The notes under the pieces were generated by a model. That model saw nothing but the letters and a program-made list of their open reading frames with translations. It did not search any database and was not told the origin of the DNA. This document shows positions 11,070 through 60,710 of a stretch of 64,000 nt of DNA, piece after piece. Position 1 is the stretch's first letter; each line of letters opens with the position of its first letter. Both the position numbers and the translations under genes were made by a program. The stretch comes from a bacterium (lineage in GTDB: Bacteria > Actinomycetota > Acidimicrobiia > Acidimicrobiales > Bin134). The stretch spans positions 164,134 to 228,133 of the forward strand of contig JAPOVT010000056.1 in NCBI GenBank assembly GCA_026708015.1, written 5' to 3'.

Positions 11070-12689
11070 GTGCCCTTGAATCTGGCTACGGCCTGGGAGG
11101 CGGCTGCGGAAGTGGTGCCGGATGCCGATGCGGTGGTGTGTCATCCGGTCAGCAGAACGTGGCGGAAGTTTGAGGATCGCGCTGCTCGGCTCGCTGGCGC
11201 GCTGGAGGGATTCGGCATAGGCGCGGGCGACAACGTTGGGCTCTACCTCTACAACGGCAACCCCTACAGCGAGGTCACCTTTGCCGCGTTCAAGGCCCGG
11301 GCCGCCCCATGCAATGTGAACTATCGCTATCTGGCCGGCGAGTTGCAGCACCTGCTGGAAGATGCCGACGCCAAGGCGATGTTCTTCTCCCCGGAGTTGG
11401 CCGATCGGGTGGACGAGGTCCGTGAGCACTTGCCGCTGCTTCGAGCAGCTATTCAAGTGGGCGATCCTGGCGACCCCGTGCCCGACTGGGCGGTGGATTA
11501 CGAGGTCCTCATCGCCGAGCATGATCCGGCACCTCCCATCGACCGCAGCCCTGACGACCTGTGGATCCTCTACACCGGCGGCACCACCGGCAAACCCAAA
11601 GGGGTCATTTGGCCCCACAGCTCGTTGATCGGTGCCATGGCCGGACCGTTTCGGGCGCTGACGCTGCCCCTCCCGGAGACAATCGAGTTGGTGAAGTCCA
11701 ACATCGCGGCCATCTACGACAGCAACCGAGTCACCCGACAGTTGGCGGCATCACCGCTCATGCACGGAACGGGCAGCATCGTTGCGCTGGCTACATTCAC
11801 TCAGGGCGGGGCGGTGATCACCATGCCGGAGCGCAGCTTCGACGCCGACGCCTTGTGGCGATGCGTTGAAAGGGACCGGGCGACCGTGCTGACCATCGTG
11901 GGTGACGCCTTTGGCCGACCCATGGCCGAAGCCTTGGATGCCGCGGCAGTTCGAGGCGAGCCCTACGACCTGTCGTCGGTGTTCATGATCATGTCCTCCG
12001 GGGTGATCTGGAGCCAGCCCGCCAAAGAGGCCTTACTGGTACACAAAGACATGAAGCTGGTGGACTCCCTGGGATCCAGTGAGGGCACCGGCACCGGCAT
12101 GAGGATCAGCGACCGCAAGGGCGGCTCGGCCACCGCCCGATTCACGTTGGGGGAGAACGCCGCGGTGTTTGACGAGGACGGTCAGCCAGTGGAGCCCGGC
12201 TCGGGGCAGCAGGGCATGGTGGCCGTGGGCGGCCCCATCCCCATCGGCTACTACAAGGACCCCAAGAAGACGGCGGCCACATTCCGCACCATCGGCGGGC
12301 GGCGCTGGTCGGTGCCCGGCGATTGGGCCACCGTGGAAGCCGACGGCACCATAACCCTGCTGGGCCGGGGTTCGGCGTGCATAAACAGCGCGGGAGAGAA
12401 GATCTACCCCGAAGAGGTGGAAGAAGCGGTCAAGGCCCATCCCGCGGTGGCCGACTGCCTGGTGGTAGGGGTGCCCGACCCCAAATGGGGCGAGGCGGTA
12501 ACCGCAGTGGTGCAGATGGCCAGCGAAGCCACCGACGAGGAGATCATTGCCGATGCCCGCAGCCGTCTGGCCGCCTACAAGCTCCCCAAGTCACTCATTC
12601 GCAGCGATGCCGTCAAGCGGGGGGCCAACGGCAAGCCCGACTACCAGTGGGCCAAAAAGTTCGCCCTCGAGTCCTTGGGCGTCGATTGA
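11070..12689 (+). CDS. AMP-dependent acyl-CoA synthetase/ligase
   Basis: 'ILYTGGTTGKPKGV', 'DWATVEADGTITLLGRGSACINSAGEKIYPEEVE', 'GKPDYQWAK'. Confidence 0.85.
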   Translation: MPLNLATAWEAAAEVVPDADAVVCHPVSRTWRKFEDRAARLAGALEGFGIGAGDNVGLYLYNGNPYSEVTFAAFKARAAPCNVNYRYLAGELQHLLEDADAKAMFFSPELADRVDEVREHLPLLRAAIQVGDPGDPVPDWAVDYEVLIAEHDPAPPIDRSPDDLWILYTGGTTGKPKGVIWPHSSLIGAMAGPFRALTLPLPETIELVKSNIAAIYDSNRVTRQLAASPLMHGTGSIVALATFTQGGAVITMPERSFDADALWRCVERDRATVLTIVGDAFGRPMAEALDAAAVRGEPYDLSSVFMIMSSGVIWSQPAKEALLVHKDMKLVDSLGSSEGTGTGMRISDRKGGSATARFTLGENAAVFDEDGQPVEPGSGQQGMVAVGGPIPIGYYKDPKKTAATFRTIGGRRWSVPGDWATVEADGTITLLGRGSACINSAGEKIYPEEVEEAVKAHPAVADCLVVGVPDPKWGEAVTAVVQMASEATDEEIIADARSRLAAYKLPKSLIRSDAVKRGANGKPDYQWAKKFALESLGVD

Positions 12690-55156: not shown

Positions 55157-56305
55157 ATGGTGTACACAAGGCTCTTGGCGGTTCCCGACAGGAGCTTCTT
55201 TCTGTTCGGCGTGCGAGGCGTGGGCAAGAGCACATGGGTGCGCATGATGTTGCCTGAAGCCACCCGCTTCGACCTGCTGGACGAGGCGCTGTTCACTGAT
55301 CTGCTGGCCGATCCAGCGTTGTTCGGGAACCTCTTGTCAGGCGTTGAGCCAGGACACTGGGTGGTAGTGGACGAAGTGCAGCGCATACCCGCACTGCTCA
55401 ATGAGGTTCACCGCCAGATTGAAGAACGAGGTATTCGCTTTGCATTACTGGGCTCCAGCGCCCGGAAACTCAAGACTGCGGGCACGAATCTGCTGGCTGG
55501 GCGGGCAGCTCGCAAGGCCATGTATCCGCTCACTCCGGCCGAATTGGGTGGCGATTTCGATCTAGACGAGGCCCTTCGCTTTGGAACCATCCCTCTGGTT
55601 TGGGCCGCCGATGACCGCCGTGAAGTCTTGGAGAGCTACACCCAGCTCTATCTTCGCGAGGAGATCAGAGCTGAGGCCGCGGTGCGGAATCTGCCCGGTT
55701 TCATTCGATTCCTCCCGGTGGCCGCGCTGATGCATGCCCAGACGCTCAATGTGGTTGGCTTGGCACGAGACACAGGAGTTGCCCGTCCCACCGTGGCCGG
55801 CTATCTGGAGGTGCTAGAAGACACACTGCTCGTAACCCGCTTGGAGGCGTTCGAGGCCAAACTCCGGGTGCGAGAGCGACGACGTCCCAAGCTCTATTGG
55901 GTCGACCCCGGCTTGGTGAGAGCAGCGAAGCGACAACTCGATCCGGTGACCGCCGAAGAGCGAGGCGCGTTGTTGGAGGGCTGGGTCTATGGGCTTCTAA
56001 GGGCCCACAACGAAACCCAAGCGATCTTCGATGCCATTGCCTATTGGTCGCCCACCGAGTCGGATGCTGAGGTCGACTTCCTGCTCACTCGCGGCAATGA
56101 GCATCTCGCCCTCGAAGTCAAGGCCTCGACCGGCTACAACACCACCATGCTGAAGGGCCTGCGAGCCATCGACGGCCTGGCTGGCTTGACACGCCGCATC
56201 CTTATCTACAACGGCACCCGCGACTTCCGAACCGAAGACGGGATCCACGTCTGGCCCGTCGACCAATTTCACGAAGCTCTCACCACTGACCGGCTTTGGC
56301 CCTGA
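55157..56305 (+). CDS. AAA-type ATPase with DUF4143-like C-terminal PD-(D/E)xK module
   Basis: Walker A 'GVRGVGKST', Walker B 'WVVVDEVQ'. C-terminal 'AEVDFLLTRGNEHLALEVKAS' (D...ExK). Start at ATG 55157 after an AT-rich leader. Confidence 0.75.
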   Translation: MVYTRLLAVPDRSFFLFGVRGVGKSTWVRMMLPEATRFDLLDEALFTDLLADPALFGNLLSGVEPGHWVVVDEVQRIPALLNEVHRQIEERGIRFALLGSSARKLKTAGTNLLAGRAARKAMYPLTPAELGGDFDLDEALRFGTIPLVWAADDRREVLESYTQLYLREEIRAEAAVRNLPGFIRFLPVAALMHAQTLNVVGLARDTGVARPTVAGYLEVLEDTLLVTRLEAFEAKLRVRERRRPKLYWVDPGLVRAAKRQLDPVTAEERGALLEGWVYGLLRAHNETQAIFDAIAYWSPTESDAEVDFLLTRGNEHLALEVKASTGYNTTMLKGLRAIDGLAGLTRRILIYNGTRDFRTEDGIHVWPVDQFHEALTTDRLWP

Positions 56306-56348: not shown

Positions 56349-56561
56349 GTGGACCTGGTTATCAAGAACCTCGACGAAGAAGTTGCCCGGCGACTGGAGG
56401 AGCAGGCAGTTGCCGCTGGGGTACCGCTGCATTGGCATGTGCAAAACGAGCTAGCTCGTATTGCTTCCCGACTCTCACCTGCTGAGCTGGTCAGTGGCCG
56501 TCAGCCGATGAACCGATCAGAGTTCGAGGCCATACGGCAGCGCTTGCGTAGTCAGGCCTGA
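56349..56561 (+). CDS. ribbon-helix-helix (Arc/FitA/VapB-like) small protein
   Basis: GTG start. 'VDLVIKNLDEEVARRLEEQAVAAGVPLHWHVQNELARIA' fits the RHH antitoxin/regulator pattern. No PIN or other toxin gene follows. Confidence 0.5.
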   Translation: MDLVIKNLDEEVARRLEEQAVAAGVPLHWHVQNELARIASRLSPAELVSGRQPMNRSEFEAIRQRLRSQA

Positions 56562-56661
56562 CAATTCATACTGCGCGAAAGTGTCTCTCGCTTTCAGATA
56601 ATGACATAAGTGTGAGTTGGAATCGCACTACCGTCTACACCAAGGAAGCGAGGGACCGAGG

Positions 56662-57744
56662 ATGTCCAGAACCATCCGCTCGATTGATCTGTTCGCGGGG
56701 GCAGGGGGCTTGTCGCTGGGATTCGATCTAGCCAACGACGAACTCGACAGCATCAGGTTTGAGTCCGCTTTCGCAGTTGAGCACGATCCCGCAGCAGCGC
56801 TGACCTACAAGACCAATTTCGGCGTCACCGTGTACGACGGTGATATCGAAGGGTTTGACCCGATCACTTACCCAGAAGCGGAGGTCATTGTCGGTGGCCC
56901 TCCCTGCCAGGGGTTTTCCCCGCTCGGCCGTGACCGGGATGACCAGTCTCGTGCTGAGTTGAACGCACTCTGGGAGCACTATCTCGCTGCGGTCGAGCAA
57001 GTTGAGCCGTTGGCATTCGTCATTGAGAACGTCCCGGAGTTTCAGAAGTCGGCTGAGTTCGAAGAGCTGCTGAGACGACTCGCATCTCATCCGCTGTTAC
57101 GCGAGTACTGCTATAGCTACGGAGTGCTGAACGCGGTGGACTATGGAGTTCCACAAAGCCGGCGGAGGGGAATCTTTATGGCGGTGAGAGGCAGGGAGGT
57201 TCCGTGGCCGCCACCCCCCACGCATGGGGGTGGTCCAATAGGCCAGGAACCGGCGCGGACGGTGCGGGATGCCATTGGGGATCTGCCACCGAAGCCAACG
57301 ACAGACCAGCCAGTCATGAGAGACGGGTTTCAGGACCTGCATATCCGCCGGAACCCACGGCCGACTTCTCTAGAGCGATACCAGGCAATCCCCGAGGGCG
57401 GCAACCGGTTCGACCTCCAGCGAGCTCGACCCGACCTAACCCCTGCCTGCTGGGCCAACAAGCCGACCGGAACGACGGACGTTATGGGCCGGTTGTGGTG
57501 GGACAGGCCCAGCTTTACCATCCGCACCGAGTTCTACAAGCCCGAGAAGGGTCGCTACCTGCACCCCAGCGAGGACCGCCCCATCACCCACCGCGAGGCT
57601 GCTCGACTCCAGACCTTCCCAGATGTCTTCATTTTCGAAGGCACCAAAATCGAGATCGCCCGCCAGATCGGCAACGCCGTCCCCTCGCTGCTGGGCAAGG
57701 CCATCGCCCTCCATCTCGCAAAGCTGCTGGGGCAGGGACGGTAG
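56662..57744 (+). CDS. DNA (cytosine-5)-methyltransferase
   Basis: Motif I 'DLFAGAGGLSLGF', IV 'GGPPCQGFS', VI 'FVIENVPEF', VIII 'QSRRR', X 'GNAVP'. Confidence 0.9.
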   Translation: MSRTIRSIDLFAGAGGLSLGFDLANDELDSIRFESAFAVEHDPAAALTYKTNFGVTVYDGDIEGFDPITYPEAEVIVGGPPCQGFSPLGRDRDDQSRAELNALWEHYLAAVEQVEPLAFVIENVPEFQKSAEFEELLRRLASHPLLREYCYSYGVLNAVDYGVPQSRRRGIFMAVRGREVPWPPPPTHGGGPIGQEPARTVRDAIGDLPPKPTTDQPVMRDGFQDLHIRRNPRPTSLERYQAIPEGGNRFDLQRARPDLTPACWANKPTGTTDVMGRLWWDRPSFTIRTEFYKPEKGRYLHPSEDRPITHREAARLQTFPDVFIFEGTKIEIARQIGNAVPSLLGKAIALHLAKLLGQGR

Positions 57745-57784: not shown

Positions 57785-58687
57785 GTGAACGCAAGACCAG
57801 ATCCTGAATTAGAAGCGGTTGCCGATGAATTGATGGGCATTCGAGACTTCGAGAGCCGAGTAGCGACCGTCCTTCGGGACACGCTTGACCAGCTCTACGA
57901 TGGCCAACGCACCGGACGGTACAAGTGGGATCAGCTTCACAAGACGGAAAAGACCCATTGCGGAACCTTGGTCGAGATCAACATGCAGCGCGAGTTCCAG
58001 TTCGCAGACGGCAAGAAGCTCGACTACAAGATCGCCAACATAGAAGTGGACTGTAAGTACTCGCAGAAGCTGGGCGGTTGGATGATCCCAGTAGAGGCTC
58101 GAGGCGAGTTGTGCATGGTGATCTGGGCTGATGACGGTAAGTCGGTTTGGACGCTGGGTTTGGTCAGAGCTCTCAAGGAGATGCTCACCAAGGGGGGAAA
58201 TAGGGACAGGAAAGCCAGCCTCAGCCAAGACGGGATGTCATCAGTACGCTGGCTCTTCCAGGAAAGCGAACTCCCACCAAACGTCCTGCTCCAGATTCCA
58301 GAAGCTGACGTCAACCACATCATGGGGCCCAAGTCTGGGGCCGAAAGGATCCGACGCCTGTTCCGCACCGTGCAGGGCCAGCGGATAGGACGTGGTGTCG
58401 TGGCCACCGTCGCCCAACAAGCCGACTACATGAAGCGAATCCGCGGCAACGGCGGTGCCCGCAGCCAGCTCCGGGAAGAAGGCATCATCATCCTCGGCCA
58501 GTACGAGGCCCACCGCGAGATCGCTCGCCAACTTGGAATCACAGTCCCTGGCAAAGGCGAGTCAGTCAGCGCCCGGGTAAGGGTTTCTGATTCTTCTACT
58601 CCAGACTCTGTGCTGATCGAAGGTTCTTGGTGGTGTTTAGCACGAGAAGTAGATTCAGCGGTGAAAGCTCCTGATGTGTCCACTTAG
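57785..58687 (+). CDS. type II restriction endonuclease, NaeI family
   Basis: 'LRDTLDQLYDGQRTGRYKWDQLHKTEKTHCGTLVEINMQREFQF', 'LDYKIANIEVDCKYS', 'VATVAQQADYMKRIRGNGGARSQLREEGIIILG' closely follow the NaeI sequence as I recall it. GTG start. Confidence 0.75.
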   Translation: MNARPDPELEAVADELMGIRDFESRVATVLRDTLDQLYDGQRTGRYKWDQLHKTEKTHCGTLVEINMQREFQFADGKKLDYKIANIEVDCKYSQKLGGWMIPVEARGELCMVIWADDGKSVWTLGLVRALKEMLTKGGNRDRKASLSQDGMSSVRWLFQESELPPNVLLQIPEADVNHIMGPKSGAERIRRLFRTVQGQRIGRGVVATVAQQADYMKRIRGNGGARSQLREEGIIILGQYEAHREIARQLGITVPGKGESVSARVRVSDSSTPDSVLIEGSWWCLAREVDSAVKAPDVST

Positions 58688-59583
58688 TGAGAGCGGAAGA
58701 CTTCAGCAGAGTTATGGCGGGATGGTTACGTACATGTCGAAGCACAATGGATGGCATTACAATGACAACAGATGCATTTGATGATCTAAAAAAACACTTC
58801 AAGGCAATGGCGATCGAGTTGAAGAGCAAAGGCGAACAAGCAAGCGTGTTTGCCCACACTTCGGACACCGGAACGGAACGGGAGGAAGCATATCGAACCT
58901 TTCTTGAGCGACATCTCCCAAAGACCTGCGATGTGTTCCTTGGCGGGTACTTGTTTGATATGAATGGAGCTAAATCCTCCCAGATGGATGTCATAGTTAC
59001 CGATGGGCATACTCCTAGATTCGTTATGCCGGATGGCAGCAAGCACATTGCGCCATTGGAGGGATCAGTCGGTGTCGCTGAGATAAAATCTAAGTTGGAC
59101 AAGGATTCACTGCTTAGGGCTCTAGAGGGATGCGCGTCGATCCCTGGTATGCCAGACAAAAGTGGGCTTGCCAACCCTATGTTGAAATTGCATGATGAAG
59201 GCTGGTTAGACACTCCCTATAAGGTGATCTTTGCTTATGATGGAGTGGCGGCAGATACACTTCTAGACCATCTCAATAGTTTCTATCTTGAACACAGCGA
59301 TATAACTTTAGACAGACGGCCTAATGTCATTCATGTATTGGGTAAGTATATGATCATTCGAGTGGTTTCTGGAATATCCTTTCAGACAATTGGTGATGCA
59401 CCAAGCGACGATTCTCTTTCGATCGGACAATTTGAGGCACTGACCGTTCAGCCTGATGTGTCTGCAATGCTTTGGATTATAAATGCCCTGCACAAAAAGG
59501 CCTCTACCGCTTCTCATCTCTTGTACAAATTTGATGCATGGCACGAAAACATTGTCATGCGTCTTGTGGCTGAGCCTGCCTGA
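58687..59583 (+). CDS. DUF6602-like predicted PD-(D/E)xK protein with unrecognised C-terminal half
   Basis: 'TGTEREEAYRTFLERHLPKTCDVFLGGYLFDMNGAKSSQMDVIVTD...PLEGSVGVAEIKSKL'. GC is 21/60 (58741-58800) and 22/60 (59281-59340). Start uncertain: GTG 58687 overlapping the NaeI-like stop, or ATG 58714/58747/58762. Confidence 0.5.
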   Translation: MRAEDFSRVMAGWLRTCRSTMDGITMTTDAFDDLKKHFKAMAIELKSKGEQASVFAHTSDTGTEREEAYRTFLERHLPKTCDVFLGGYLFDMNGAKSSQMDVIVTDGHTPRFVMPDGSKHIAPLEGSVGVAEIKSKLDKDSLLRALEGCASIPGMPDKSGLANPMLKLHDEGWLDTPYKVIFAYDGVAADTLLDHLNSFYLEHSDITLDRRPNVIHVLGKYMIIRVVSGISFQTIGDAPSDDSLSIGQFEALTVQPDVSAMLWIINALHKKASTASHLLYKFDAWHENIVMRLVAEPA

Positions 59584-59828
59584 CGTCTGGCAGCATGTCC
59601 GACTCATGGCGCGGCTTTTGACACGGGGCTGATAACCGTTAATGGGGGGCTCAAAGTTCATCTGGCGCAGAAACTTGAGACGAGTACCCGTGCTGACCCC
59701 GGCGTTGACCAGTACCTCGGCCAGCGCTCAGACCAAAGTTGGTGATTCCAGAGCAGGGTGAGCGTCCTGGGGATACCTACTTGACCTGGCACCAAGAGCA
59801 CGTCTTTCAGAGGGTCGTCGCGACCTGA
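59584..59828 (+). pseudogene. HNH (HNH_2-type) endonuclease, 3' remnant with frameshift
   Basis: Frame 1 reads 'RLAACPTHGAAFDTGLITVNGGLKVHLAQKLE...' to TGA 59743. Frame 0 continues 'ALRPKLVIPEQGERPGDTYLTWHQEHVFQRVVAT*' to the stop at 59826-59828. There is no N-terminal part and no start codon. Confidence 0.5.
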
Positions 59829-59846: not shown

Positions 59847-60710
59847 TTATGACGTTTCGAGGAGCGCGTCGCAGTCGATGAGGGTGGGGTTGGTGGGTGC
59901 GAGGCGGCGGATCATCACTTGGATGGCTTCGGGGTTGTTGTCGATGAGGAGGTAGTCGCGGCCGTGTTTGGCGGCGGCTTCGCCGAGGGTGCCGCTGCCA
60001 GCGAAGAAGTCGAGCAGGAGGTCGCCTGGTCTTGAGTGGACCTTCACCAGGCGCTCGAGGACGCCGAGGGGCTTTTGGGTGGCGTAGCCGGTCTTCTCTT
60101 TGCCGTTGGGGCTCACGATGGTGTGCCACCAAACGTCGGTGGGGGTCTTGCCCCGGGCGGCCTTCTCCTTGCCGACCAGACCGGGGGCCATGTAGGGGAT
60201 TCGATCCATCTCGTCGAAGTTGAACGTGTAGTCAGCAGGGTCTTTGGCGTACCACAGGATGCTGTCGTGCTTGGCCGACCACTTCTTCTTGGAGCGGGCT
60301 CCGTAGTCGTAGGCCCAGATGATCTCGTTCATGAACGAGTCCCGGCCGAAGATCTGATCGAGCAGCACCTTGCAGTAGTGGACCTCCCGGTAGTCGATGT
60401 GGAGAAAGAAACTGCCGGTGTCGGCTAGGACCCGGTGGGCTTCCTCGAATCGGGGGGCGAGAAATTCCATGTAGTCGTCGAAGGCGTCGTCATAGCCCGA
60501 CTTGCCAAGGCGGATCGTCTGGTAGCGGCGACCGGCGAAGCCAGTTCGGTCGCCGTTGGTTTCGTCGTGAATGGTCTTGAACCGCTCGCGCTCTTGCCGC
60601 TTACCGGTGTTGAAAGGCGGGTCAACGTAAATGAGGTCGACGCTGGCGTCGGGCAAGCTCTGCAGCACCGGCAGGTTGTCGCCAAAGACGATCTTCCCCA
60701 TCCCGGCCAA
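59847..60710 (-). CDS. site-specific DNA methyltransferase, beta class (DPPF; N6-adenine or N4-cytosine)
   Basis: Motif IV 'LIYVDPPFNTG' precedes motif I 'LLLDFFAGSGTLGEAA'. 'TQKPLGVLERLV' is also present. Confidence 0.85.
   Translation of the reverse strand: MAGMGKIVFGDNLPVLQSLPDASVDLIYVDPPFNTGKRQERERFKTIHDETNGDRTGFAGRRYQTIRLGKSGYDDAFDDYMEFLAPRFEEAHRVLADTGSFFLHIDYREVHYCKVLLDQIFGRDSFMNEIIWAYDYGARSKKKWSAKHDSILWYAKDPADYTFNFDEMDRIPYMAPGLVGKEKAARGKTPTDVWWHTIVSPNGKEKTGYATQKPLGVLERLVKVHSRPGDLLLDFFAGSGTLGEAAAKHGRDYLLIDNNPEAIQVMIRRLAPTNPTLIDCDALLETS

What the first reader, a model, noticed from the sequence alone, without database searches (positions are those of the whole stretch)
58687..59583. Low-GC gene: DUF6602-like PD-(D/E)xK N-domain fused to an unrecognised C-terminal half, abutting the NaeI-like stop
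The N-terminal ~130 aa carry the pattern I associate with DUF6602: 'GTEREEAYRTFLERHLPKTCDVFLGGYLFDMNGAKSSQMDVIVTD ... GSVGVAEIKSKL'. That gives a D...ExK restriction-endonuclease-like core. The remaining ~150 aa ('PYKVIFAYDG...NSFYLEHSD...VIHVLGKYMII...') match nothing I recognise.

The gene is the most AT-rich stretch in the window, at 21/60 and 22/60 GC in two sampled lines. Its first possible start (GTG 58687) shares a base with the TAG stop of the NaeI-like gene. Its TGA stop is in frame with the HNH remnant that follows. To my knowledge DUF6602 has no experimentally defined role. Sitting between two R-M units, it is a plausible stand-alone or R-M-assisting defence effector.
Basis: partly seen in the sequence, partly recalled or inferred. 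Interest (0 to 1): 0.75.

Follow-up and report, generated by a model that had tools for sequence, protein, structure and literature searches.

The report
NucC-like nuclease riding on restriction-modification operons
The AT-rich gene is a single-domain DNA-cutting enzyme with the fold of the phage-defence nuclease NucC. It lacks NucC's signal-binding residues, and its closest relatives sit inside restriction-modification operons, so it is probably a second-line defence nuclease whose trigger is unknown.

Summary
The ORF is real and by far the most AT-rich gene in the window (GC 0.46, GC3 0.46; window 0.63). Its start is almost certainly ATG 58762, giving 273 aa, not GTG 58687.

It is not a DUF6602 domain fused to an unknown half. 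The whole protein models as one NucC fold: pLDDT 88.9, and the top 14 PDB hits are all NucC, aligned full length, TM 0.70-0.77. Pfam DUF6602 is simply the nuclease core of NucC, a characterised CBASS and type III CRISPR effector.

The catalytic D-x30-ExK is intact. NucC's cA3-binding residues R53, Y81 and T226 have no conserved equivalents in 220 relatives. No cyclase gene was found in the 64 kb window.

The closest relatives (48-68% identity) are mostly wired into type I R-M operons as hsdM-X-hsdS-hsdR with ATGA overlaps. There they co-diverge with HsdM, not with HsdS, under purifying selection. In this window the gene follows an intact M.NaeI/R.NaeI pair.

Best reading: an R-M-linked second-line or back-up DNase with a non-cA3 trigger. 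That function is inferred, not shown. Verdict: a new variant of a known kind, of moderate interest. The "HNH remnant" could not be confirmed.

The parts
58762..59583 (+). Gene X: a 273-aa NucC-fold (DUF6602) PD-(D/E)xK endonuclease, stop codon included
   Evidence: Homologues start at this Met. AF2 model pLDDT 88.9. Foldseek top 14 PDB hits are all NucC, about 270 aligned columns, target-normalised TM 0.70-0.77.
58687..58761 (+). In-frame upstream extension from GTG 58687. Most likely an untranslated 75-nt spacer after the NaeI stop.
   Evidence: No homologue covers these 25 residues (query coverage 90-92%). GC 0.486. A weak GGATGG lies 9 nt before ATG 58762.
58834..59145 (+). Pfam DUF6602 match, which is the nuclease core shared with NucC
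   Evidence: E 7.7e-21. PADLOC PD_DExK 5e-23 and NucC 6.7e-14. hhalign against NucC, probability 96.5.
58987..59088 (+). Catalytic motif: D76 (58987-58989), E100 (59059-59061), E107-I-K109 (59080-59088). The spacing is D-x30-ExK, as in NucC's IDx30EAK.
   Evidence: Among 220 family members D76 is 100% conserved, K109 98%, and E100 is E or D in 96%. These align to NucC D73, E104 and K106. Their role in NucC is from Lau et al., 10.1101/694703.
59146..59580 (+). C-terminal half: the NucC-type additions to the nuclease core. It holds a gate-loop-length insert that starts at the invariant P128, a beta-hairpin (PNxIHVLGKY) and C-terminal helices.
   Evidence: Conserved across the family. Structurally aligned to the full length of NucC. 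Sequence alignment here is only low-confidence.
57785..58687 (+). NaeI-family type II restriction endonuclease, directly upstream on the same strand
   Evidence: Pfam NaeI E 8.3e-112. PADLOC REase_II 1.2e-88.
56617..57744 (+). C5 cytosine DNA methyltransferase, the presumed partner of the NaeI-like enzyme
   Evidence: Pfam DNA_methylase 1.8e-54. TIGR00675 dcm.
59847..60710 (-). N4/N6 DNA methyltransferase, convergent with gene X. No recognisable restriction partner nearby.
   Evidence: Pfam N6_N4_Mtase 2.5e-48. PADLOC MTase_II 1.7e-140.
59584..59745 (+). A 53-codon open frame that continues from the X stop codon.
   Evidence: Translation. No Pfam hit. Only an E=0.5 tblastn hit to an annotated HNH endonuclease.
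55157..56305 (+). AAA_14/DUF4143 ATPase (PADLOC candidate PDC-S01) at the left edge of the island
56349..56561 (+). Small ribbon-helix-helix protein upstream of the methyltransferase. Possibly a controller protein.
   Evidence: Weak FitA-like RHH match, E 5.8e-5, below the Pfam cut-off.

Best explanation
Shown by computation: bases 58762-59583 encode a 273-aa, single-domain, metal-dependent DNA endonuclease with the NucC fold. NucC is a restriction-endonuclease-like PD-(D/E)xK enzyme, and Pfam DUF6602 is its core. The catalytic D-x30-ExK is intact.

Inferred: the gene is co-transcribed with the upstream M.NaeI/R.NaeI pair. It belongs to a clade that has left cyclic-oligonucleotide operons and lives inside restriction-modification operons, typically translationally coupled as hsdM-X-hsdS-hsdR. 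By analogy with NucC, it probably forms trimers that must pair into hexamers to make double-strand cuts, and is held inactive until triggered.

All three side chains that bind cA3 in every characterised NucC are missing, and no cyclase gene is nearby. The trigger is therefore probably not cA3. It is more likely an infection cue tied to failure or evasion of the R-M barrier. That makes the protein a second-line or abortive-infection DNase, comparable in logic, not in fold, to PrrC inside EcoprrI.
For: Fold:
- AF2 model pLDDT 88.9, pTM 0.89.
- Foldseek top 14 PDB hits are all NucC (E 1e-14 to 8e-12, about 270 aligned columns, target-normalised TM 0.70-0.77). The next hit, BbvCI, has E 0.018.

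Sequence:
- Pfam DUF6602, PADLOC NucC and PD_DExK, and PDB NucC chains all match.
- NucC itself is DUF6602.

Active site: D76, E100, E107 and K109 are present and conserved.

No cA3 triad:
- The NucC R53 position is variable in the family (T/R/M/S/N/K).
- The Y81 position is T/A/S and never aromatic.
- The T226 position is F in 40% of members.
- These residues are essential and conserved in E. coli, P. aeruginosa, V. metoecus and Serratia NucC.

No cyclase: PADLOC found no CD-NTase, Cas10 or TIR among 47 other ORFs of the window.

Genomic context:
- Of 11 distinct members of the window's clade, 9 sit directly beside R-M genes.
- hsdM/X and X/hsdS junctions overlap as ATGA.
- X identity tracks HsdM identity (Spearman 0.80), while HsdS is only 26-59% identical.
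- dN/dS is 0.05-0.21.

Precedents: PrrC and TgvAB are embedded in type I R-M operons, and the "guilt by embedding" approach has been validated. Damona is a single-gene DUF6602 defence system.
Against: - No experiment or expression data exist for any member of this clade.
- The hsdM-X-hsdS-hsdR loci are one co-diverging operon lineage. They count as roughly one ancient association plus three others: L003 (M-S-X), the window (Dcm-NaeI-X) and L018 (R-S-M-X).
- More distant family members (<45% identity) are mostly not next to R-M genes.
- In the window the partner is a type II system, not type I. That argues against a specific contact with HsdM/HsdS.
- One homologue lies 540 nt from a type III-B CRISPR array and another follows a ThsB-like TIR gene. 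A nucleotide signal is therefore not excluded.
- The T226 mapping rests on a low-confidence part of the alignment.
- Oligomeric state and pocket geometry could not be modelled.
Confidence: 0.5

Rival explanations
1. Orphan signal-activated effector. X is still an allosteric, NucC-type nuclease switched on by a diffusible nucleotide: cA3 bound in a different way, another cyclic oligoadenylate, or a TIR-derived product. The signal would be made by a CBASS, type III CRISPR or TIR system encoded elsewhere in the genome. The R-M neighbourhood would be no more than defence-island clustering.
For: - The NucC fold is kept over the full length, including a gate-loop-length insert with an invariant proline.
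- The best PADLOC hit is a CRISPR-associated PD_DExK profile (5e-23).
- Homologue P0074 sits at the end of a type III-B array.
- Homologue P0058 follows a ThsB-like TIR gene.
Against: - The R53, Y81 and T226 equivalents are absent in 220 members.
- Only about 1 of 40 loci is next to type III CRISPR, and that locus already has a Csm6 effector.
- No cyclase gene is found in the window.
- Tight ATGA coupling to hsdM and hsdS, and co-divergence with HsdM, are more than loose clustering.
Confidence: 0.2
2. Directly acting complementary nuclease. X attacks DNA that escapes the neighbouring R-M system, for example modified phage DNA, without an abortive step. This would resemble the type IV systems TgvAB and BrxU, which are embedded in type I R-M and BREX loci.
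For: Embedding of modification-dependent nucleases in R-M or BREX operons is documented. X is a restriction-endonuclease-like fold.
Against: - No recognisable modified-base reader or NTPase domain. The whole 273 aa is accounted for by the NucC fold.
- Characterised NucC enzymes are largely sequence-nonspecific and insensitive to methylation.
Confidence: 0.1
3. Conventional sequence-specific type II restriction endonuclease. Its modification partner would be the convergent N4/N6 methyltransferase at 59847-60710. In the relatives, the partner would be the HsdM/HsdS methyltransferase, as in AhdI-type systems.
For: - The convergent X / methyltransferase arrangement in the window.
- NucC is structurally related to NgoMIV and SgrAI.
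- AhdI-like systems, which pair a type II nuclease with an M+S methyltransferase, exist (from my own knowledge, not checked here).
Against: - X stays 48-84% identical across loci whose neighbouring methyltransferases belong to different classes: m5C Dcm here, and HsdM with highly divergent HsdS (26-59%) elsewhere. The N4/N6 enzyme occurs only in the window lineage.
- Complete HsdR genes with nuclease domains are present in the type I loci.
Confidence: 0.05
4. Not a defence function. X could be a selfish, toxin-like or addiction gene that stabilises the island, or a housekeeping repair nuclease.
For: - The gene is persistently AT-rich and cassette-like, with DNA similarity confined to the ORF.
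- Many distant homologues sit among transposases and integrases.
Against: - The family is patchy across phyla and located in islands, unlike a housekeeping gene.
- The neighbourhoods are dominated by defence genes: R-M, DarTG, Fic, MazEF, TIR and CRISPR.
Confidence: 0.05

Closest known systems
NucC (CBASS type III and type III CRISPR-Cas effector; PDB 6P7O, 6P7P, 6Q1H, 6UXF, 7ZGV)
   Same: Same fold over the whole length (target-normalised TM 0.70-0.77). Same Pfam domain, DUF6602. Same catalytic D-x30-ExK spacing. Similar size, 273 against 241 aa.
   Different: Only 14-18% identity. By sequence, only the N-terminal half aligns with confidence. The cA3-binding R53, Y81 and T226 and the latch residues H136 and Y141 have no conserved equivalents. 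The gene is not in a CD-NTase or Cas10 operon and is embedded in R-M operons instead.
Damona (single-gene DUF6602 anti-phage system from the Vibrio cholerae chromosomal integron)
   Same: A DUF6602 protein that defends without an adjacent cyclase. Its authors also report matches to Cas PD_DExK and CBASS endonuclease profiles, the same pattern seen here.
   Different: Damona is an integron cassette or prophage gene, not R-M-embedded.
PrrC in the EcoprrI type Ic R-M locus (an R-M guardian)
   Same: A latent nuclease gene embedded in a type I R-M operon. The idea of a back-up that fires when restriction is inhibited comes from this system.
   Different: PrrC is an ABC-ATPase fused to a tRNA anticodon nuclease, so fold and substrate are unrelated. 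Any interaction of X with an R-M complex is untested. In the window the R-M system is type II.
TgvAB, BrxU and RloF (GmrSD-like type IV nucleases embedded in type I R-M or BREX loci)
   Same: Defence nucleases genetically embedded within another defence operon.
   Different: They have a DUF262 NTPase plus a DUF1524 HNH architecture and depend on DNA modification. X has neither domain.
NgoMIV, SgrAI and Kpn2I type II restriction endonucleases
   Same: They share the PD-(D/E)xK core with NucC. Weak Foldseek hits to SgrAI and NgoMIV were seen.
   Different: Those hits have E 0.4-0.5 and TM about 0.2. X carries the NucC-specific additions to the core and does not co-vary with any methyltransferase specificity.

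Membership tests
Pfam PF20247 (DUF6602) | HMM match above the gathering score | tested here: met
   74.4 bits against a cut-off of 27, E 7.7e-21, profile positions 2-102 of 104.
NucC structural family | NucC fold over the full length: the nuclease core plus the C-terminal additions | tested here: met
   The top 14 Foldseek PDB hits are all NucC, with about 270 aligned columns, target-normalised TM 0.70-0.77 and probability 1.00, using a model with pLDDT 88.9.
NucC structural family | Catalytic IDx30EAK-type motif (D73, E104 and K106 in E. coli NucC) | tested here: met
   (M/I)D76-x30-E107-I-K109. D is 100% and K 98% conserved among 220 members. Position 107 is E in 49% and S in 44% of the wider family, and E in the window protein.
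NucC as a cA3-activated effector (CBASS / type III CRISPR) | cA3-contacting residues R53, Y81 and T226 | tested here: not met
   The aligned positions 55, 84 and 248 are T, T and S in the window protein. Across the family they are variable, T/A/S (never aromatic) and mostly F, respectively. The first two lie in the high-confidence part of the alignment. The third is low-confidence.
NucC as a cA3-activated effector (CBASS / type III CRISPR) | Gate-loop hairpin with aromatic latch residues (H136, Y141) | tested here: inconclusive
   An insert of similar length (aa 126-152) is present with an invariant P128. The model shows no hairpin and no conserved aromatic pair. This region does not align reliably.
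NucC as a cA3-activated effector (CBASS / type III CRISPR) | Encoded in a CD-NTase operon or a type III CRISPR-Cas locus | tested here: not met
   No cyclase or Cas10 within +/-10 kb or among 47 other ORFs of the window. Among about 40 loci, one lies next to a type III-B array.
NucC as a cA3-activated effector (CBASS / type III CRISPR) | Homotrimer that forms a hexamer on ligand binding | not testable with these tools
   Only monomer prediction was available.
Type II restriction endonuclease of an R-M pair | A cognate methyltransferase of matching specificity is always linked | tested here: not met
   Neighbouring methyltransferases differ in class between loci. HsdS is 26-59% identical while X is 48-84% identical.
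R-M-embedded back-up effectors (PrrC-like logic) | Gene embedded in, and co-inherited with, an R-M operon | tested here: met
   hsdM-X-hsdS-hsdR with ATGA overlaps in L004, L005, L007 and L074-L078. M-S-X in L003. Dcm-NaeI-X in the window. X-to-HsdM distance correlation 0.80.
R-M-embedded back-up effectors (PrrC-like logic) | Kept latent by the R-M complex and activated when that complex is inhibited | not testable with these tools
   This needs biochemistry or genetics.
Damona | Sequence relatedness to the V. cholerae Damona protein beyond the shared domain | not tested
   The sequence is not in the held text or supplements.

The most novel reading that the evidence does not exclude
A lineage of the NucC fold has been uncoupled from cyclic-oligonucleotide signalling and hard-wired into restriction-modification operons. 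It is translationally coupled between hsdM and hsdS, and here sits behind a type II pair. It would act as a DNase guardian that is released, or allosterically switched by a ligand other than cA3, when the R-M barrier is inhibited or bypassed.
Probability: 0.3. Interest if true: 0.75.

Novelty: new variant of a known kind. Interest (0 to 1): 0.55.

Why it matters
NucC is the textbook example of a restriction-like nuclease brought under second-messenger control. Here is a clade that keeps the fold and the active site, has lost the cA3-binding residues, and is stably embedded in R-M operons across Chloroflexota, Gemmatimonadota, Acidobacteriota and other phyla.

If its trigger is R-M failure or a new ligand, it would show how allosteric defence nucleases are rewired between immune systems. 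It would also add a DNase counterpart to the PrrC type of R-M guardian.

The practical point is that "DUF6602" in annotations should be read as "NucC-type nuclease core". It is not an unknown domain.

Tried and rejected
1. Methyltransferase "frameshift". I first read a frameshift in the N4/N6 methyltransferase of the sister assemblies (L001, L002) as evidence that X does not need that enzyme. Direct inspection showed a 10-N scaffold gap, so the argument is withdrawn.
2. Seven "mismatches". A run of seven apparent mismatches at 58788-58794 was a BLAST soft-masking artefact over an A7 tract. The real differences from L001 inside X are 4 nt, giving 3 amino-acid changes.
3. HNH remnant. No Pfam hit at E<=1. 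The best tblastn match has E 0.5. It remains unverified.
4. A conserved AAA_14/DUF4143 "frame" shared by the window and L003. The two ATPases are only 26% identical, so I rejected it.
5. Phage origin. One viral contig in IMG/VR, no BFVD structural hit at E<=1e-3, no tblastn hit in 50,697 phage records and no PHROG.
6. Promoter and terminator scan. Nothing above shuffled expectation.
7. Mobile-cassette boundaries. DNA similarity to other loci stops at the ORF ends.
8. NCBIfam as a NucC membership test. It has no model even for genuine NucC, so it is uninformative.
9. Default hhalign aligned only the N-terminal half. The forced full-length alignment is low-confidence in the middle.
10. Supplements of the "guilt by embedding" paper (Payne et al.) and of the Damona paper. 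No mention of DUF6602 or NucC in the first and no Damona sequence in the second.
11. Type I R-M seeds against 32 metagenome loci. No hits, but most of those loci are short and below 48% identity.
Full report
**The observation**

An ORF runs from GTG 58687 to TGA 59583 on the + strand (298 aa).

It is the compositional outlier of the window:
- GC is 0.464, against 0.634 for the window and 0.57-0.62 for the flanking island genes.
- GC3 is 0.46, against 0.60-0.89 for the other genes.

Pfam DUF6602 matches aa 50-153 well above its cut-off (74.4 bits against 27, E 7.7e-21), so the gene is real.

The start is probably wrong. A search of 5.8 billion proteins returned 114 relatives. Nearly all are about 273 aa, cover 90-92% of the query, and begin at the Met encoded by ATG 58762. 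The 99%-identical protein P0001 from a MAG (GCA_026707505.1) is annotated at 273 aa. The one-base overlap with the NaeI stop is therefore most likely a by-product of mechanical ORF calling. A 75-nt spacer separates the two genes.

**What the protein is**

The C-terminal half is not a separate, unrecognised module.
- It is conserved throughout the family, for example D150-x-PYK, PNxIHVLGKY and D232.
- An AlphaFold2 model built on a 58-sequence alignment is confident (pLDDT 88.9, pTM 0.89).
- Foldseek against the PDB gave NucC chains as the top 14 hits (6Q1H, 6P7P, 7ZGW, 6UXF, 7ZGV, 6P7O, 6UXG). E-values are 1e-14 to 8e-12, about 270 columns align, and TM normalised to the target is 0.70-0.77.
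- The next hit, BbvCI, has E 0.018.

By sequence, only the N-terminal half aligns to NucC with confidence.

DUF6602 is the NucC nuclease core:
- E. coli-type NucC scores 103.9 bits on PF20247.
- RefSeq labels NucC homologues inside CBASS operons "DUF6602 domain-containing protein".

The domain therefore has an experimentally defined role. NucC is a homotrimeric DNase that binds cA3 at its three-fold axis, forms hexamers and shreds DNA (Lau et al., 10.1101/694703). A single-gene DUF6602 anti-phage system, Damona, has also been reported (10.1101/2024.07.02.601686).

**Active site and allosteric site**

The catalytic residues are present with NucC's spacing: D76-x30-E107-I-K109, plus E100. They are conserved across 220 full-length relatives: D 100%, K 98%, E100 as E or D 96%.

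The residues that bind cA3 are essential in E. coli NucC and conserved in the Pseudomonas, Vibrio and Serratia enzymes. They are not conserved here:

| NucC residue | Family position | Residues found in the family |
|---|---|---|
| R53 | 55 | variable: T/R/M/S/N/K |
| Y81 | 84 | T 50%, A 20%, S 14%; never aromatic |
| T226 | 248 | F 40% |

The first two mappings lie in the hhalign segment with 96.5% probability. The third comes from a forced full-length alignment, and a weak HMMER segment gives the same register.

An insert of gate-loop length (aa 126-152) is retained and begins with an invariant proline. No aromatic latch is evident. The fold and the chemistry are NucC's. The cA3 sensor, as currently known, is not.

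**Genomic context in the window**

The gene lies in a 5.6-kb island of lower GC, flanked by metabolic genes. In order, the island holds:
1. an AAA_14/DUF4143 ATPase;
2. a small RHH protein;
3. a C5 methyltransferase;
4. a NaeI-family endonuclease (E 8e-112);
5. gene X;
6. a 264-nt gap;
7. a convergent N4/N6 methyltransferase.

No CD-NTase, Cas10 or TIR protein was detected among 47 other ORFs of the window. No promoter or terminator signal above background separates NaeI from X.

**Genomic context of relatives**

I examined about 40 loci. An NJ tree places the window protein with its 68%-identical sister (L003) next to a clade of 48-57%-identical proteins.

- In that group, 9 of 11 distinct loci have X directly beside R-M genes.
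- L003 is hsdM-hsdS-X.
- L004/L006, L005, L007, L074, L075, L076 and L077/L078 are hsdM-X-hsdS-(small genes)-hsdR. L008 keeps the same order in degenerate form.
- At both junctions, the stop and start codons overlap as ATGA.
- Pairwise identity of X follows that of HsdM (Spearman 0.80) and HsdR (0.71). HsdS is only 26-59% identical.
- dN/dS for X is 0.05-0.21.

X is therefore a long-standing, selected passenger of one type I R-M lineage, and it does not track specificity changes. Because these operons are related, they count as one old association, not eight independent ones. Separate associations are L003 (different gene order, HsdM 46% identical), the window (a type II pair) and the distant L018 (hsdR-hsdS-hsdM-X).

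More distant members (<45% identity) mostly sit among transposases, integrases, toxin-antitoxin genes or unrelated genes. Single cases follow a ThsB-like TIR gene (L029) or lie 540 nt beyond a 16-repeat type III-B CRISPR array (L031).

The full-length family is moderate in size: 187 clusters at 50% identity with E<=1e-30, and 4,301 at E<=1e-3 for the wider superfamily. It is essentially absent from phage and plasmid collections.

**Mechanism**

- **Shown by computation:** a NucC-fold nuclease with an intact active site, under purifying selection, embedded in R-M operons, lacking the cA3 triad, with no cyclase nearby.
- **Inferred:** it acts on DNA. Like NucC, it is probably gated by oligomerisation. 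The gate is opened by something other than canonical cA3 binding. The persistent coupling to R-M genes suggests a second-line role, either a back-up when restriction is inhibited or evaded (the PrrC/EcoprrI logic) or complementary coverage (the TgvAB logic).

I give this combined statement about 0.5. The fold assignment alone is above 0.95.

Rivals:
- An orphan effector listening to a nucleotide signal made elsewhere: 0.2. It is supported by the retained fold and the CRISPR and TIR neighbours. It is weakened by the missing binding residues and the tight R-M coupling.
- A directly acting complementary nuclease: 0.1.
- A classical type II enzyme paired with the convergent methyltransferase or with HsdM/S: 0.05. 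This is disfavoured because X stays conserved while the neighbouring methyltransferases change class and specificity.
- A non-defence or selfish gene: 0.05.

**Corrections to my own work**

An apparent frameshift in the N4/N6 methyltransferase of the sister assemblies is a scaffold gap of 10 Ns. An apparent block of seven mismatches was a masking artefact. Neither is used as evidence.

The "HNH remnant" after the stop codon (59584-59745) has a CPTH...AFDxGL-like string. It gave no Pfam hit and only an E=0.5 tblastn match to an annotated HNH endonuclease, so it stays unverified.

**Unexplained**

In all 19 loci checked, X is 10-27 GC points below its surroundings. Its GC3 is 0.39-0.61, next to hsdM and hsdR genes at 0.79-0.92. 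This holds despite co-divergence with those genes. Possible causes are selection for poor expression of a toxic DNase, or recurrent replacement from an AT-rich gene pool. I could not distinguish between them.

**Novelty and verdict**

The literature held here contains no description of NucC/DUF6602 proteins embedded in R-M operons. Embedding of defence genes in type I R-M loci is an established theme, with thousands of candidate families. The fold and chemistry are known.

This is a new variant of a known kind. It is a good experimental lead on how an allosteric defence nuclease is rewired, but not a categorically new system. Interest: 0.55.

Noticed in passing
window 58762-59583; L003-L005, L007, L014-L032, L074-L077: Gene X is always much more AT-rich than its host locus, by 10-27 GC points. 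Its GC3 is 0.39-0.61, against 0.79-0.92 for the hsdM and hsdR genes it is translationally coupled to, even though it co-diverges with them.
   Followed up: partly
window 58585-58687: The low-GC tract begins about 100 nt before the end of the NaeI gene (0.47, against 0.62-0.65 just upstream). The NaeI Pfam match still runs to the C-terminus. This may mark a recombination junction.
   Followed up: no
window 59584-59745: A 53-codon open frame continues from the X stop codon and contains a CPTH..AFDxGL-like string. It could be the relic of an HNH nuclease that once partnered the convergent N4/N6 methyltransferase, but no significant match was found.
   Followed up: partly
window 55157-56305 and 56349-56561: An AAA_14/DUF4143 ATPase (PADLOC candidate PDC-S01) and a small RHH protein open the island. 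L003 also has an AAA_14/DUF4143 gene upstream of its hsdM, but the two ATPases are only 26% identical.
   Followed up: partly
L031 6275-7745 and 8001-8819: A homologue (44% identity) lies 540 nt past a 16-repeat type III-B CRISPR array. A second two-repeat array of a different repeat type sits in between. That locus also encodes a Csm6-type HEPN effector.
   Followed up: partly
L029 6982-8819: A homologue (48% identity) follows a ThsB-like TIR gene and a 122-aa ORF that overlaps it by 4 nt. This could be a TIR-plus-NucC-like two- or three-gene system.
   Followed up: no
L005 10617-12117; L074 12354-13601; L075 12566-13152; L076/L077 9179-9755: The same type I R-M operon lineage collects other embedded or adjacent defence and toxin genes: DarT with a macro-domain protein, Fic, MazE/PemK, and DUF433 with a small ORF between hsdS and hsdR.
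   Followed up: no
L004 5818-8004, L075 4872-7004, L003 4642-6660: The HsdM proteins that precede X are long (650-730 aa). About 200 residues lie beyond the N6_Mtase domain and match no Pfam family.
   Followed up: no
L001 about 11422-11431 (and the same place in L002): The two sister assemblies carry a 10-N scaffold gap inside the N4/N6 methyltransferase gene. It mimics a frameshift in gene calls, which split the gene into 111-aa and 174-aa products.
   Followed up: yes
L028 3456-4176 and 4419-6977: A distant homologue is split across two frames and is followed by an 852-aa AAA_13/SMC-like ABC ATPase.
   Followed up: no
L035 2214-4327 (Acinetobacter plasmid pA2485); L036 3956-5165 (Xanthomonas plasmid): Other DUF6602 proteins without cyclases: one lies between an Abi-family gene and a SEC-C motif gene, and one is followed by an HD-domain gene. 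The superfamily has several cyclase-free contexts.
   Followed up: no
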